Source: a virus
Virus record (IMG/VR): IMGVR_UViG_3300012359_000003
Span: 1 to 58,393 of that record
Direction: 5' to 3' (one strand)
Length of the DNA stretch: 58,393 bases
Positions 6,894 to 8,599 of the stretch are shown piece by piece. A model generated the notes under the pieces. The model did not search any database, was not told the DNA's origin, and saw nothing but the letters and a program-made list of their open reading frames with translations. The position numbers were made by a program, and so were the translations under genes. The stretch's first letter is position 1, and each line of letters begins with the position of its first letter.

Positions 6894-6980
6894 CGCTACC
6901 TGGAGATGGTGTAAGGTTCGGTTACTTCATACTGCGGTACCGAACCTGCCCCCTTGTTCCTCTCCATCGTAAAGTCCGAA

Positions 6981-7239
6981 TGGCCTGGGAGGTGGTGTTT
7001 GCTAACGGGTACTTCTTTGGGTGACGTGTCCCGTCAGCGCTTTGTTCCCCTCCCAGCCAGTCGAGTCGGTCGTCCCTCTTGTGGATGGTGTAGTTGCCGG
7101 ATACTTCAACTTTAGGTCGAGGGTTCGAATCCCTCTGAACAAGGCTGTAGACCTTGTTCGTAGCTCAGGGGTAGAGCAAAAGCCAAGTGCCGCCGACGTG
7201 ATGTTCCTCCACTGAGGGCCGAAAGGCCCTCCTTTTTTG
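6981..7239 (+). ncRNA. Y-RNA-like (YrlA-like) ncRNA candidate. It has a bulged-C stem module, a permuted tRNA-like module and an intrinsic terminator.
   Basis: The stem 6981-6992/7049-7059 has a single bulged C. The T arm is GAGGG-TTCGAAT-CCCTC (7119-7135), preceded by AGGTC. A closed acceptor-like hairpin spans 7136-7160, followed by TA and then the D arm GCTC-AGGGGTA-GAGC (7163-7177). The terminator is at 7214-7239. The locus sits directly upstream of the TROVE gene. Confidence 0.6.
7214..7239 (+). terminator. Rho-independent terminator
   Basis: GAGGGCC-GAAA-GGCCCTC followed by CTTTTTTG. Confidence 0.8.
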
Positions 7240-7273
7240 CCCACAACCACAACCACAGGCTGAGGCCCACATC

Positions 7274-8599
7274 ATGGAGATCAACCGGATCGCAGCAAAG
7301 ACCCACGAAGGCGCACATGCGGCACCTATGTCTCCCGAGCAAGCCCTTCGCCGCTCCGTCATGTCATGCCTCCTGTGGGAGCGTGAGTTCTACGAGAACG
7401 GAACTGCCATCGCCGATCGGATCGAGCAGCTGTGTCAGCAAGTCTCCCCGAAGGTGATTGCAGCACTCGCGATCGAGGCACGGCACAAAATGCACCTGCG
7501 CCATGTTCCGCTCCTCTTGTTGGCCTCCCTCGCCAAGCTCGCTCCCGGTACCTCGCTCGTGTCCGATACCATCGAAACGACTATTGCCCGTGCTGACGAG
7601 ATCACCGAGCTCCTCGCCATTTACTGGCGGAGAGGGAAGTGCCCACTCAGTGCCCAACTCAAGCGCGGCCTCGCTCGTGCCTTCCGCAAGTTCAGCACCT
7701 ACCAACTTGCGAAGTACAACCGGGCCAAAGCTATCCGGCTCCGTGACGTGATGTTCCTCGTCCACGCTAAGCCTGAGTCCGAGTCCCAGGTGAACGCATT
7801 TCGCGATCTTGCCAACAAGACTCTATCCGCGCCCGATACCTGGGAGGTGGCGCTGAGCGCAGGTGCCGATAAGCGTGAGACCTTTACTCGACTCCTCACC
7901 ACTGGAGATCTTGGCTATCTTGCGCTGCTCCGCAACCTGCGCAACATGGCCGAGTCGGAAGTGAACCCTGACCTGATCTGCGAGGCCATTCTTGCGGGGA
8001 AGGGCGCTCATCAGGTGCTGCCGTTTCGTTATGTCGCTGCAGTTCGGGCTGCACCGCAGTTCGCTAACGAACTCGACCACGCGATGCAGAAGGCCATCGA
8101 GCGCCTACCGCTGCTGTCTGGTACCACCCTCGTGCTGGCGGACGTGTCGGGCTCCATGGACGATCCGCTATCAGCGCGCTCAGACCTCAGCCGTTTGGAT
8201 GCCGCCGCAGCCCTCGCATCGCTAATCAACGGATCGAGACTCCGGGTGTTCACGTTCTCAGAAAAGGTGGTCGAGTGTGCTCCCTGGCGTGGCCTAGCAG
8301 GGATTTCCGAGATCACCAATTCCCAAAACCACTCCGGCACTTACCTGGGCCAGGCCCTCCGTACCGTTTGCGCAGCCACCAACAACTGTTGGGACCGTCT
8401 AATCATCATCACAGACGAGCAGTCCCATGATCGTGTAGAGCACCCCGGCCACGGCCGTTGCTACATGATCAATGTCGCCAGTGCCAAGCACGGTGTCGGT
8501 TATGGTGAGTGGACGCACATCGACGGCTTCAGCGAGAACGTGATCCGCTACATCGCAGAACTCGAAGCCCAAACCCACCTCGCAGTATTCCCGTTGTAG
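7274..8599 (+). CDS. rsr: Ro60-related protein (TROVE domain + vWA/MIDAS domain)
   Basis: TROVE-like N-terminus (EQALRRSVMSCLLWEREFYENG...EARHKMHLRHVPLLLLASLAK) and a vWA MIDAS motif in LVLADVSGSMDDPLS. Confidence 0.8.
   Translation: MEINRIAAKTHEGAHAAPMSPEQALRRSVMSCLLWEREFYENGTAIADRIEQLCQQVSPKVIAALAIEARHKMHLRHVPLLLLASLAKLAPGTSLVSDTIETTIARADEITELLAIYWRRGKCPLSAQLKRGLARAFRKFSTYQLAKYNRAKAIRLRDVMFLVHAKPESESQVNAFRDLANKTLSAPDTWEVALSAGADKRETFTRLLTTGDLGYLALLRNLRNMAESEVNPDLICEAILAGKGAHQVLPFRYVAAVRAAPQFANELDHAMQKAIERLPLLSGTTLVLADVSGSMDDPLSARSDLSRLDAAAALASLINGSRLRVFTFSEKVVECAPWRGLAGISEITNSQNHSGTYLGQALRTVCAATNNCWDRLIIITDEQSHDRVEHPGHGRCYMINVASAKHGVGYGEWTHIDGFSENVIRYIAELEAQTHLAVFPL

What the first reader, a model, noticed from the sequence alone, without database searches (positions are those of the whole stretch)
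6914..8599. Phage-encoded Ro60 (TROVE+vWA) gene preceded by a Y-RNA-like ncRNA with a circularly permuted tRNA-like module
The 441-aa ORF has a TROVE-like N-terminal region and a vWA MIDAS motif (DVSGSM), as in Ro60/Rsr.

The 380 nt upstream contain no credible ORF but are highly structured on the + strand:
- A 9-bp hairpin at 6914-6947.
- An 11-bp stem, 6981-6992/7049-7059, with a single bulged C. This is reminiscent of the Ro-binding helix of Y RNAs.
- A tRNA look-alike whose parts are in permuted order. These are the variable-loop-like AGGTC (7114-7118), the T arm GAGGG-TTCGAAT-CCCTC (7119-7135), and an 8-9-bp acceptor-like helix closed by a 7-nt loop (7136-7160).
- The tRNA-like module continues with TA (like U8-A9) and then the D arm GCTC-AGGGGTA-GAGC (7163-7177).
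- Where the anticodon arm should be, the strands (CTTT 7110-7113 / AAAG 7179-7182) run off into the rest of the RNA.
- A strong intrinsic terminator at 7214-7239 ends the unit 35 nt before the Ro60 start.

A closed acceptor and an open anticodon arm is the architecture known for bacterial YrlA-type Y RNAs encoded next to rsr.

In a lytic-looking phage this pair could remodel RNA decay or quality control. As speculation, the tRNA mimic could act as a decoy for tRNA-targeting host defences.
Basis: partly seen in the sequence, partly recalled or inferred. Interest (0 to 1): 0.8.

Follow-up and report, generated by a model that had tools for sequence, protein, structure and literature searches.

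The report
Phage Ro60 gene with three Y-RNAs
A phage genome carries a Ro60-type RNA-binding ring protein preceded by three tandem Y-RNA-like genes, the last one holding a rearranged tRNA look-alike; this pairing is real, but the same kind is already described in bacteria and other phages.

Summary
ORF 7274-8599 is a TROVE + vWA (Ro60/Rsr-type) protein. Its best solved relative is the Ro60 of Thermus phage phiLo.

The 380 nt upstream are not three unrelated structures. They are three tandem copies of one conserved RNA module: 6899-6968, 6985-7056 and 7078-7213. Each module has these parts:
- an outer stem;
- a bulged U;
- an invariant GG/CC pair;
- the motifs UGGUG(U/A)AG, (G/U)UACUUC and UUGUUCC;
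- an inner stem.

Modules 1 and 2 carry a small hairpin. Module 3 carries a circularly permuted tRNA-like domain of the YrlA type: T arm, closed acceptor, D arm and an open anticodon stem. An intrinsic terminator follows at 7214-7239.

My own covariance models find the module on the gene's strand next to the TROVE gene in 88 of 92 viral loci and about 76 of 80 bacterial loci. Covariation is strong.

Rfam's YrlA model matches module 3 only below its curated threshold (35 against 69 bits).

Ro60 genes with adjacent tRNA-like Y RNAs were catalogued in 254 bacteria and 22 phages in 2014. A phage Ro60/Y-RNA/PNPase complex was characterised in 2025.

Verdict: a new member of a known kind, of modest interest.

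The parts
6899..6968 (+). Module 1: a short Y-RNA-like module without a tRNA-like domain.
   Evidence: My model R1 scores it 51.6 bits, but it was in the training set. Model R2, built only from long modules, scores it 35.4 bits with E 4e-7. The minimum-free-energy fold gives the same helices, z = -3.2. No Rfam family matches it at E <= 10.
6985..7056 (+). Module 2: a short Y-RNA-like module.
   Evidence: R1 scores it 51.7 bits, in the training set. R2 scores it 29.0 bits with E 1.5e-5. The fold has z = -3.9 and accounts for 45% of the ensemble. Covariation of both stems is seen across 40 short modules.
7078..7213 (+). Module 3: a YrlA-type Y-RNA-like module. Outer stem 7081-7085/7208-7212; bulged U 7086; GG 7087-7088 paired with CC 7206-7207; UGGUGUAG; inner stem 7093-7100/7190-7197; AUACUUC 7101-7107. 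The insert is a circularly permuted tRNA-like domain.
   Evidence: Rfam YrlA RF02553 matches 7094-7202 at 35.2 bits, E 4e-6, below the gathering score. R2 scores it 83.6 bits, in the training set. All six helices are supported in 39 relatives: 90.8% of cells paired against 40-53% when the partner is slid.
7110..7182 (+). The tRNA-like domain of module 3. Its parts, in order: anticodon-stem 3' strand CUUU 7110-7113; variable loop AGGUC 7114-7118; T arm 7119-7135 (GAGGG-UUCGAAU-CCCUC); closed acceptor-like hairpin 7136-7160 (9 bp, 7-nt loop, no CCA); U8-A9 equivalents 7161-7162; D arm 7163-7177 (GCUC-AGGGGUA-GAGC); A 7178; anticodon-stem 5' strand AAAG 7179-7182.
   Evidence: ARAGORN finds no tRNA in the native order. 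It calls a tRNA once the parts are put back in tRNA order, with an artificial anticodon loop, one changed base and an added ACCA. The nucleotides for the U8:A14, G15:C48, G18:U55, G19:C56 and U54:A58 contacts are present, by direct reading of the sequence.
7214..7239 (+). Intrinsic terminator: GAGGGCC-GAAA-GGCCCUC followed by CUUUUUUG. It lies directly after module 3 and 34 nt before the start codon.
   Evidence: Terminator scan. The same element follows the tRNA-like module in the closest relative, L005 2292-2311. That relative is 82% identical at protein level, so this is weak independent evidence.
7261..7264 (+). Likely ribosome-binding site GAGG, 9 nt before the ATG.
   Evidence: Read directly from the sequence. 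This is inference only.
7274..8599 (+). Ro60/Rsr-type protein of 441 aa. The TROVE (HEAT-repeat) region covers about residues 8-276. The vWA domain covers about residues 281-420, with MIDAS DVSGSM at residues 290-295 (nt 8141-8158).
   Evidence: Pfam and PHROG 850 'RNA-binding protein' at 7e-46. PDB matches by sequence. AlphaFold model with pLDDT 84.8. Foldseek matches. More than 8000 homologues at E <= 1e-10.

Best explanation
This is a phage copy of the Ro60 / Y-RNA system.

**What is shown**
- The phage encodes a Ro60-type ring protein (TROVE + vWA).
- Immediately upstream, on the same strand, lie three tandem Y-RNA-like genes that share one conserved module.
- The module is conserved in sequence and structure, and it is tightly linked to the TROVE gene.
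- The protein belongs to the Ro60 family.

**What I infer**
- Each module's outer stem and its invariant asymmetric internal loop form the Ro60-binding element. The loop has UGGUG(U/A)AG on the 5' side and GCUUGUUCC on the 3' side, with a bulged U. It sits at the position of the published GNCGAA(N)G motif.
- Each module can therefore load one ring.
- Module 3 adds a YrlA-type tRNA-like 'effector' domain. Its elbow (T and D arms) would tether the ring to a host factor.
- Modules 1 and 2 are short, YrlB-like RNAs. They would occupy or gate the ring without the tRNA-like domain.
- By analogy with D. radiodurans and Salmonella RYPER and with Thermus phage phiLo, the most likely host partner is polynucleotide phosphorylase. 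The phage would then retune or attenuate host 3'-to-5' RNA decay during infection.
- The terminator after module 3 would yield more Y RNA than Ro60 mRNA, with the gene expressed by read-through.

I put RNP formation at about 0.85 and PNPase as the partner at about 0.4.
For: **Protein**
- Pfam TROVE and VWA_2 score above their cutoffs.
- phiLo Ro60 (9KOP/9L5Y) matches at 4e-28 with the single sequence and at 2.5e-43 with the family profile over residues 8-430. Human RO60 matches at 1e-6.
- The AlphaFold model has pLDDT 84.8. Its 13 best PDB matches are all Ro60/Rsr, at E 2e-19 to 2e-10.

**RNA**
- The composite motif occurs three times in the window, only here.
- Rfam YrlA matches module 3 from end to end.
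- In 40 short modules, 88.6% of cells are paired against 42-49% when the partner is slid, and the covariation score is 0.72 against 0.08-0.16.
- In 39 long modules, 90.8% of cells are paired against 40-53%, and all six helices are supported.

**Linkage to the gene**
- R1 gives 166 hits at E <= 1e-3 in 88 of 92 viral loci. All are on the gene's strand, and about 93% lie just upstream.
- R2 gives 225 viral and 213 bacterial hits, all on the gene's strand.

**Motif equivalence**
- The R2 alignment puts GGCGACGAAG of a Microcystis phage module under GGUGGUGuAG.
- Phage CcrColossus modules read GGUGGCGUAG.

**Literature**
- Chen 2014 (PMC4201824) reports YrlA near rsr on the same strand in 254 bacteria and 22 phages, and the GNCGAAN0-1G and YUAY motifs.
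- Hu 2025 (PMC12135203) shows that phiLo Ro60 binds two upstream Yrl RNAs and host PNPase, and that the complex slows PNPase.
Against: - Nothing here shows transcription, RNA ends, protein-RNA binding or any effect on RNA decay.
- Module 3 misses the Rfam YrlA gathering score (35.2 against 69). The strict GNCGAAN0-1G motif is absent: the modules read GGUGUAG, GGUGUAAG or GGUGUUUG.
- phiLo's experimentally bound Yrl RNAs do not match my module models. The analogy with phiLo therefore rests on the protein and the gene order, not on RNA homology.
- Foldseek TM-scores are only 0.41-0.49 and pTM is 0.59, so ring closure in the model is not established.
- The host is unknown, and the window encodes no PNPase, RtcB or other RNA-repair gene.
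- No promoter was found for the RNA array.
Confidence: 0.85

Rival explanations
1. The array is mainly a cis-acting 5' leader of the Ro60 mRNA. The protein would bind the modules in its own leader, next to the terminator, and so autoregulate read-through or translation. The modules would not be stable trans-acting RNAs. This does not exclude the main explanation.
For: The modules lie on the gene's strand and about 93% are immediately upstream of the gene. A strong terminator sits between module 3 and the start codon, touching the module's outer stem. No separate promoter for the gene fits in the 34-nt gap.
Against: In several phages the modules lie downstream of the gene: L094, L095, L056, L008-L013 and Microcystis phage Mvi-JY20. 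In Salmonella the Y RNAs are also 3' of rsr and are stable RNAs bound in trans (bioRxiv 10.1101/312249). In the closest relative a further module follows the terminator. The outer stem and the terminator are not mutually exclusive structures.
Confidence: 0.15
2. The tRNA-like domain acts as a decoy or competitive inhibitor for host tRNA-targeting defences, such as anticodon nucleases. Ro60 would serve only as a stabilising chaperone.
For: The domain is a close tRNA mimic: ARAGORN accepts it once it is un-permuted. Hughes 2020 (PMC7790460) proposes that Salmonella YrlA, which the SOS-induced anticodon nuclease does not cleave, could inhibit that nuclease competitively. Many relatives carry an anticodon-loop-like 7-nt hairpin with varied triplets.
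Against: Module 3 of this window has no anticodon loop; CUUU/AAAG runs straight on towards the inner stem. It also has no free CCA end. It therefore lacks the sites that anticodon nucleases and acceptor-end toxins attack, and only elbow-binding proteins could be titrated. The idea does not explain modules 1 and 2.
Confidence: 0.1
3. The tRNA-like stretch is a decayed or rearranged phage tRNA gene or an attachment-site remnant. The flanking hairpins would be ordinary terminators or chance structures unrelated to the TROVE gene.
For: ARAGORN and Rfam at their curated thresholds find nothing in the window. Module 3 is not unusually stable (z = -1.3).
Against: The same permuted order and the same flanking motifs recur next to TROVE genes in more than 160 loci from phages and bacteria. 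Compensatory changes occur in every helix, and all hits lie on the gene's strand. The closest relative has a completely different acceptor-hairpin sequence but keeps the hairpin.
Confidence: 0.02

Closest known systems
[quoted passage not shown] 2014 (Rfam RF02553)
   Same: - A Ro60 orthologue has several Y-RNA genes beside it on the same strand.
- One RNA carries a tRNA-like domain with T arm, closed acceptor and D arm, and an anticodon stem that opens into the 5'/3' stem.
- One or more shorter RNAs lack that domain.
- A purine-rich 5' motif sits at the base of the stem and a YUAY motif precedes the tRNA-like part.
   Different: - Here the RNAs lie upstream of the gene, not downstream.
- No RtcB/RtcA is nearby.
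- The 5' motif reads GGUG(U/A)AG instead of GNCGAA(N)G.
- A conserved 3' partner GCUUGUUCC is evident here, whereas Chen 2014 found only the 5' strand recognisable in Salmonella.
- The Rfam score is half the gathering score.
- The element is in a phage.
Thermus phage phiLo phiRo60 with Yrl1 and Yrl2 (Hu et al. 2025, PDB 9KOP and 9L5Y)
   Same: - It is the best solved relative of the protein (2.5e-43 over the full length).
- It is phage-encoded.
- Y-RNA-like genes lie immediately upstream of the Ro60 gene.
- It is the only phage system with biochemistry: the protein binds its RNAs and host PNPase, and the complex attenuates PNPase.
   Different: - Protein identity is only about 26-29%, and the phiLo protein is 500 aa against 441 aa here.
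- The phiLo upstream region gives no match to my module models.
- In the passages I read, the paper describes its Yrls as stem-bulge-stem RNAs with a CGAA motif and does not use the term 'tRNA-like'.
Deinococcus radiodurans Rsr / Yrn1 / PNPase (RYPER)
   Same: The logic is the same: a ring protein plus a modular RNA. One end of the RNA binds the ring and the other end tethers an exoribonuclease. Yrn1 has a T-arm-like hairpin.
   Different: Yrn1 resembles metazoan Y RNAs, has no full D arm and orients its tRNA-like parts differently (Chen 2014). By sequence profile Rsr (2NVO) is not detected at E <= 0.01. It is detected only by fold.
Ro60-encoding phages already in GenBank: Caulobacter phage CcrColossus, Brevundimonas jumbo phages, Xanthomonas phage Tabio group, crAss001, Rhizobium phages, mycobacteriophages
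   Same: Their proteins are 35-58% identical to this one. CcrColossus, Kikimora and Tabio carry the same module family upstream of the gene, in arrays of 5 to 8.
   Different: This window is an uncultured 58-kb phage with only three modules. In the deposited genomes the RNA arrays are unannotated or partly annotated as tRNA genes.
Metazoan Ro60 / Y RNAs (Rfam RF00019)
   Same: The protein fold family is the same, and the RNA is a stem with a bulge that binds the ring.
   Different: RF00019 gives no match at E <= 10. Metazoan Y RNAs have no tRNA-like domain.

Membership tests
Ro60 / Rsr proteins (TROVE + vWA) | TROVE (HEAT-repeat) domain recognised by Pfam PF05731 above its curated cutoff | tested here: met
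   41.5 bits against a cutoff of 23, E 1.3e-10. The family profile matches phiLo Ro60 at 2.5e-43 over residues 8-430.
Ro60 / Rsr proteins (TROVE + vWA) | C-terminal von Willebrand A domain with a MIDAS motif (DxSxS) | tested here: met
   VWA_2 scores 33.4 bits against a cutoff of 27. DVSGSM lies at residues 290-295, and D290, S292 and S294 are invariant in 27 homologues.
Ro60 / Rsr proteins (TROVE + vWA) | Ro60 fold: a ring of helical repeats closed by the vWA domain | tested here: inconclusive
   The model has pLDDT 84.8 but pTM 0.59. The 13 best Foldseek PDB matches are all Ro60/Rsr with probability 1.0, but TM-scores are 0.41-0.49 and rmsd is about 15 A. The fold family is clear; ring closure in the model is not established.
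Ro60 / Rsr proteins (TROVE + vWA) | Binds Y RNAs and misfolded RNAs | not testable with these tools
   This needs EMSA or RIP with the expressed protein.
YrlA-type Y RNA (Chen 2014; Rfam RF02553): module 3 | Encoded within 4 kb of a Ro60 orthologue on the same strand | tested here: met
   Module 3 ends 61 nt before the start codon, on the same strand.
YrlA-type Y RNA (Chen 2014; Rfam RF02553): module 3 | T-arm-like and D-arm-like stem-loops carrying the nucleotides that are invariant in tRNA | tested here: met
   GAGGG-UUCGAAU-CCCUC and GCUC-AGGGGUA-GAGC align to the model's T and D arms with high posterior probability. ARAGORN accepts the un-permuted sequence.
YrlA-type Y RNA (Chen 2014; Rfam RF02553): module 3 | [quoted passage not shown] | tested here: met
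   The 9-bp hairpin at 7136-7160 has a 7-nt loop. This helix is 97% paired, with compensatory changes at all 5 scored pairs, in 39 relatives.
YrlA-type Y RNA (Chen 2014; Rfam RF02553): module 3 | An anticodon-stem equivalent that opens into a stem formed by the 5' and 3' parts of the RNA (the Ro60-binding module) | tested here: met
   CUUU 7110-7113 pairs with AAAG 7179-7182. The inner and outer stems follow, and both covary.
YrlA-type Y RNA (Chen 2014; Rfam RF02553): module 3 | The motif GNCGAAN0-1G near the 5' end | tested here: not met
   Module 3 reads GGUGUAG, two differences from the motif. It is the positional equivalent: relatives read GGCGUAG (CcrColossus) and GACGAAG (Microcystis phage) in the same model columns.
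YrlA-type Y RNA (Chen 2014; Rfam RF02553): module 3 | Reaches Rfam's curated gathering score | tested here: not met
   35.2 bits against 69, with no hit at the gathering threshold. The relatives in Tabio, CcrColossus and Kikimora are also below the threshold, at 30-52 bits.
YrlA-type Y RNA (Chen 2014; Rfam RF02553): module 3 | Bound by Rsr; modified by TruB and DusA | not testable with these tools
   This needs immunoprecipitation and modification mapping.
YrlB-type short Y RNA: modules 1 and 2 | A short RNA next to the Ro60 gene that shares the Ro60-binding module with YrlA but lacks the tRNA-like domain | tested here: met
   Modules 1 and 2 share the outer stem, the three motifs and the inner stem with module 3. 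R2, built from long modules only, scores them 35.4 and 29.0 bits. They carry only a small hairpin. I did not test sequence homology with Salmonella YrlB itself.
Metazoan-type Y RNA (Rfam RF00019) | Match to the family covariance model | tested here: not met
   No match at E <= 10 in 6850-7300.
Canonical tRNA gene | Detected as a tRNA in the native order, with a free acceptor end and an anticodon loop | tested here: not met
   ARAGORN finds 0 genes in the window. Rfam tRNA does not match. The acceptor is closed and there is no anticodon loop.

The most novel reading that the evidence does not exclude
The most novel reading the evidence leaves open has three parts.
1. The three modules are made as one transcript and act as a multivalent scaffold that loads several Ro60 rings side by side. 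In relatives, arrays of up to eight modules would do the same. This would be a higher-order particle, not three separate 1:1 RNPs.
2. The invariant bulged-U / UGGUG / UUGUUCC internal loop, not the published 5'-strand motif alone, is the true two-stranded recognition element of this large TROVE subfamily.
3. The short module, which no Rfam family matched in the window region searched, would then be a widespread, so far uncatalogued class of Y RNA.
Probability: 0.3. Interest if true: 0.5.

Novelty: new member of a known kind. Interest (0 to 1): 0.3.

Why it matters
[quoted passage not shown] So is the reason why phages carry Ro60.

This locus adds a compact example: three modules, one of them tRNA-like, in a 58-kb phage. 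The comparative set built here is the more useful product:
- more than 400 module instances next to TROVE genes;
- a two-stranded conserved internal loop;
- short modules with no Rfam match in the window region searched.

That set gives concrete mutagenesis targets for Ro60 binding. It also gives a model that could annotate these RNAs, which deposited phage genomes currently leave blank or label as tRNA genes.

It does not change the picture set by Chen 2014 and Hu 2025.

Tried and rejected
- **Rfam and ARAGORN on the whole window.** Rfam at gathering thresholds gave nothing. ARAGORN found no tRNA or tmRNA.
- **R1 on module 3.** The short-module model cannot span the 95-nt insert: 8.2 bits with filters off. 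I therefore built a second model.
- **Weak hit elsewhere in the window.** R1 and R2 give 12.7 bits (E 0.15-0.31) at 54578-54634 on the - strand, inside coding sequence. I treated it as chance.
- **GUCCGAA at 6974-6980.** This stretch lies in the linker before module 2 and resembles the vertebrate Ro60 contact GGUCCGA. It is absent from the closest relative, so I treated it as chance.
- **Promoter scans.** No sigma-70-like promoter was found in the window or in two relatives. The transcription start remains unknown.
- **Thermus phage phiLo.** Its upstream region gave no match to my models. Its proven Yrl RNAs cannot be used as RNA homologues.
- **Human Y3.** It has GGUG, GUUAC and UUGUUCC in the same order as the module (42 of 20000 shuffles, a post hoc pattern). 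A profile HMM of the short modules finds nothing in hY3, and the helices are in a different register. I did not pursue it.
- **Second R2 hit in the Microcystis phage.** L178 3674-3809 overlaps annotated tandem tRNA genes and looks like the dimeric-tRNA false positive that Chen 2014 warned of.
- **Literature not available.** The reviews (PMC10870794, PMC6542706), the 2013 Cell paper and the supplementary tables of Chen 2014 are not held. I could not check which phages, and how many RNAs per phage, were already listed.
- **Names and contig.** Cluster look-up gave no name or accession for the protein. The contig is a metagenome assembly.
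Full report
**1. What is in the sequence**

The ORF at 7274-8599 (+) encodes 441 aa.
- It matches Pfam TROVE (41.5 bits, cutoff 23) and VWA_2 (33.4 bits, cutoff 27).
- It matches PHROG 850 'RNA-binding protein' at 7e-46.
- DVSGSM lies at residues 290-295. D290, S292 and S294 are invariant in an alignment of 27 homologues.

The terminator scan finds the terminator at 7214-7231 plus its T-run. ARAGORN finds no tRNA in the window, and Rfam at its curated thresholds finds nothing. In a sensitive local search, Rfam YrlA (RF02553) matches 7094-7202 from end to end at 35.2 bits with E 4e-6. That is half its gathering score of 69. The T arm, closed acceptor and D arm are aligned with high posterior probability.

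**2.

I read the upstream regions of relatives: Xanthomonas phage Tabio and an 82%-identical uncultured phage. They show that the 'hairpin', the 'bulged stem' and the 'tRNA look-alike' are three copies of one module. The module runs as follows:
1. outer stem (about 6 bp);
2. a bulged U;
3. an invariant GG that pairs with CC;
4. UGGUG(U/A)AG;
5. inner stem (7-8 bp);
6. (G/U)UACUUC;
7. a variable insert;
8. the 3' strand of the inner stem;
9. (C)GCUUGUUCC;
10. the 3' strand of the outer stem.

In the window the modules are 6899-6968, 6985-7056 and 7078-7213. A composite pattern for the module occurs three times in 58 kb, all here on the + strand, and never on the - strand. Its core occurs 183 times on the gene strand and once on the opposite strand in 175 related loci.

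Modules 1 and 2 carry only a small hairpin. Module 3 carries the permuted tRNA-like domain.

**3. Comparative support**

The protein family is very large. The word-based search scored the 8000 candidates sharing most words with the query, and all 8000 reached E <= 1e-10, so the true number is higher. I fetched 80 viral and 80 bacterial loci.

An alignment of 40 short modules gives:
- 88.6% standard pairs, against 42-49% when the 3' partner is slid by 1-3 columns;
- a covariation score of 0.72, against 0.08-0.16;
- 0 of 500 shuffles reaching the observed values.

The pair that closes the outer stem switches among G-C, A-U and C-G.

An alignment of 39 long modules gives 90.8% paired against 40-53%. 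Each helix is supported:

| Helix | Cells paired |
|---|---|
| Outer stem | 95% |
| Inner stem | 83% |
| T arm | 99.5% |
| Acceptor hairpin | 97% |
| D arm | 98% |

The motifs themselves were used to collect the sequences, so their invariance is partly by construction. The stem covariation is not.

I built covariance models from the two alignments: R1 (short modules) and R2 (long modules).
- R1 finds 166 matches at E <= 1e-3 in 88 of 92 viral loci. All are on the gene's strand and about 93% lie just upstream of the gene. Many are in loci that contributed nothing to the model.
- R2 finds 225 matches in the viral loci and 213 in the bacterial loci, again all on the gene's strand. By my reading of the table it hits about 76 of 80 bacterial loci. 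Three of the four misses have almost no upstream sequence.
- R2, built only from long modules, also recognises modules 1 and 2 of the window, at 35.4 and 29.0 bits. This shows the three modules are homologous.

Array size varies. There are three modules here and six in the 82%-identical relative. Tabio has about five and Caulobacter phage CcrColossus has eight.

**4. The tRNA-like domain**

In module 3 the order is:
- anticodon-stem 3' strand (CUUU);
- variable loop AGGUC;
- T arm;
- a 9-bp closed hairpin in place of the acceptor stem;
- UA;
- D arm;
- A;
- anticodon-stem 5' strand (AAAG).

The strands then run on towards the inner stem. The nucleotides needed for the U8:A14, G15:C48, G18:U55, G19:C56 and U54:A58 contacts are present, by direct reading of the sequence.

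ARAGORN rejects the native order. It calls a tRNA when the natural parts are put back in tRNA order. That construct has an artificial anticodon loop, one changed base and an added ACCA.

This is the architecture published for YrlA: a closed acceptor, no CCA, and an anticodon stem that opens into the Ro60-binding stem (Chen 2014; Wang 2018 preprint).

**5. The protein is a Ro60**

- By sequence the best solved relatives are the crystal and cryo-EM structures of Ro60 from Thermus phage phiLo (9KOP and 9L5Y), at 4e-28 with the single sequence.
- With a family profile these match at 2.5e-43 over residues 8-430. Human RO60 matches at 1e-6 and Xenopus Ro60 at 5e-3.
- The AlphaFold model has pLDDT 84.8 and pTM 0.59.
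- Its 13 best Foldseek matches in the PDB are all Ro60/Rsr structures: phiLo, human, Xenopus and D. radiodurans, at E 2e-19 to 2e-10.
- TM-scores are only 0.41-0.49. The fold family is clear, but the ring geometry of the model is not reliable.

**6. Context**

The window is a phage. It encodes a helicase, DNA polymerase, primase, ParB-methylase, portal and large terminase. It corresponds to a 58,411-bp metagenome contig.

The locus lies among replication and nucleotide-metabolism genes. The proteins I scanned include no PNPase, RtcB or RNA ligase.

No sigma-70-like promoter was found. The upstream 199-aa ORF (6294-6893) ends 5 nt before module 1, so co-transcription is possible.

**7. How it most likely works**

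*Shown.* A conserved structured RNA module is tightly linked to a Ro60-family gene, and one of its three copies holds a YrlA-type tRNA mimic.

*Inferred.* The outer stem with its invariant internal loop is the Ro60-binding element. It occupies the place of the published GNCGAA(N)G motif. In the same model columns relatives read GGCGUAG (CcrColossus) and GACGAAG (Microcystis phage). Each module would bind one ring.

The tRNA-like elbow of module 3 would tether a host factor. The best precedent is PNPase:
- RYPER in D. radiodurans;
- co-purification in Salmonella;
- phage phiLo, where Ro60 with its upstream Yrl RNAs and host PNPase forms a complex that slows PNPase by about 70-76% in vitro (Hu 2025).

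The short modules would act as gates or competitors on the ring. The terminator would set an excess of RNA over Ro60 mRNA.

I put RNP formation at about 0.85 and PNPase as the partner at about 0.4.

**8. Rivals**

- *Cis-acting autoregulatory leader.* This is compatible with the position and the terminator. It is weakened by phages where the modules lie downstream of the gene and by the trans-acting precedent.
- *tRNA decoy.* The idea has a published counterpart (Hughes 2020). Module 3 lacks both an anticodon loop and a free CCA end, so it could titrate only proteins that read the tRNA elbow.
- *Decayed tRNA gene or chance structures.* The comparative data exclude this.

**9. Comparison with what is known, and novelty**

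Chen 2014 reported 355 YrlA-like RNAs within 4 kb of Ro60 genes, on the same strand, in 254 bacteria and 22 phages. Some genomes had several. Salmonella has YrlA plus the shorter YrlB. Hu 2025 characterised a phage Ro60 with two upstream Y-RNA-like genes.

The present locus is therefore a new member of a known kind.

Under strict criteria module 3 fails two tests for YrlA: the Rfam gathering score and the literal GNCGAAN0-1G motif. It meets all the architectural criteria. I file it as a divergent YrlA-like RNA of the subgroup shared by the proteobacterial, acidobacterial and phage loci fetched here.

Three points are under-described, as far as the literature held here shows:
- the two-stranded conserved internal loop;
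- the short modules, for which Rfam gave no match in the window region searched;
- the large tandem arrays in phages.

I could not read the supplementary tables of Chen 2014 or the 2019-2020 reviews, so these points may be partly known.

**10. Verdict**

The locus is a new member of a known kind, with interest about 0.3.

Noticed in passing
Relatives only, e.g. L001 2279-2295, L021 979-995, L131, L135, L143, L169 (not in the window): Right after UUACUUC, most long modules of relatives carry a 5-bp hairpin with a 7-nt loop of anticodon-loop form, (C/U)U-NNN-(A/G)N. The triplets vary: GUU, UUG, UUU, GUA, CAU, GCU, UGU. When these modules are put back in tRNA order using natural segments (plus an added 3' ACCA), ARAGORN calls tRNA-Gln(ttg) and tRNA-Asn(gtt). 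Chen 2014 treats this hairpin as a variable arm. It looks at least as much like a complete anticodon arm.
   Followed up: partly
L061, L096, L098, L131, L135, L139, L143 (acceptor-hairpin loops): In 7 of 39 long modules the loop of the 'closed acceptor' starts with NCCA exactly after the 7-nt equivalent of the acceptor 3' strand. Chance expectation is about 0.6. This hints at processing to a free CCA end, as reported for M. smegmatis YrlA. The window's module 3 has GGCU there.
   Followed up: partly
L004 998-1065 (CcrColossus 'tRNA-Gln') and L003 1887-1961 (Brevundimonas phage Kikimora 'tRNA-Ser'): These annotated tRNA genes lie inside strong matches to the long-module model: L004 992-1160 at 102.8 bits and L003 1887-2022 at 93.8 bits. 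They are probably parts of permuted tRNA-like Y-RNA modules, not tRNA genes. CcrColossus has eight modules between 585 and 1782, otherwise unannotated.
   Followed up: partly
L002 2982-3099 (Salmonella jumbo phage vB_SalM_SA002): A YrlA-like tRNA-like core (Rfam 32.3 bits; R2 local match 35.7 bits; 79% identical to window 7108-7182) lies in an unannotated gap. No annotated protein of Ro60 size, and none with an assigned function, lies within 3 kb.
   Followed up: no
window 6294-6893 (+): A 199-aa ORF with no Pfam or PHROG match ends 5 nt before module 1. It is conserved in the same position in the closest relative (L015 1721-2326) and may be co-transcribed with the RNA array.
   Followed up: no
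L005 2337-2482 against window 7240-7273: The 82%-identical relative has six modules, one of them after the terminator, where the window has three. Its tRNA-like module has a completely different acceptor-hairpin sequence. The array therefore gains and loses modules quickly.
   Followed up: partly
Human Y3 RNA (sequence from PMC4798961) against the module consensus: Human Y3 contains GUGGUGU, GUUAC and UUUGUUCC in the same order as the module's three motifs (42 of 20000 dinucleotide shuffles, a pattern chosen post hoc). A profile HMM of the short modules does not detect hY3, and the helices are in a different register. It is probably coincidence.
   Followed up: partly
window 12528-13976 (+) and 14386-15498 (+): One ORF fuses a ParB N-terminal domain to a DNA methylase. 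Another fuses a uracil-DNA glycosylase-superfamily domain to a 3'-5' exonuclease, upstream of the DNA polymerase. These are ordinary phage replication-module oddities.
   Followed up: no
window 6974-6980: GUCCGAA lies in the linker before module 2 and resembles the vertebrate Ro60 contact GGUCCGA. In this phage it pairs to extend the outer stem of module 2. It is not conserved in the closest relative.
   Followed up: yes
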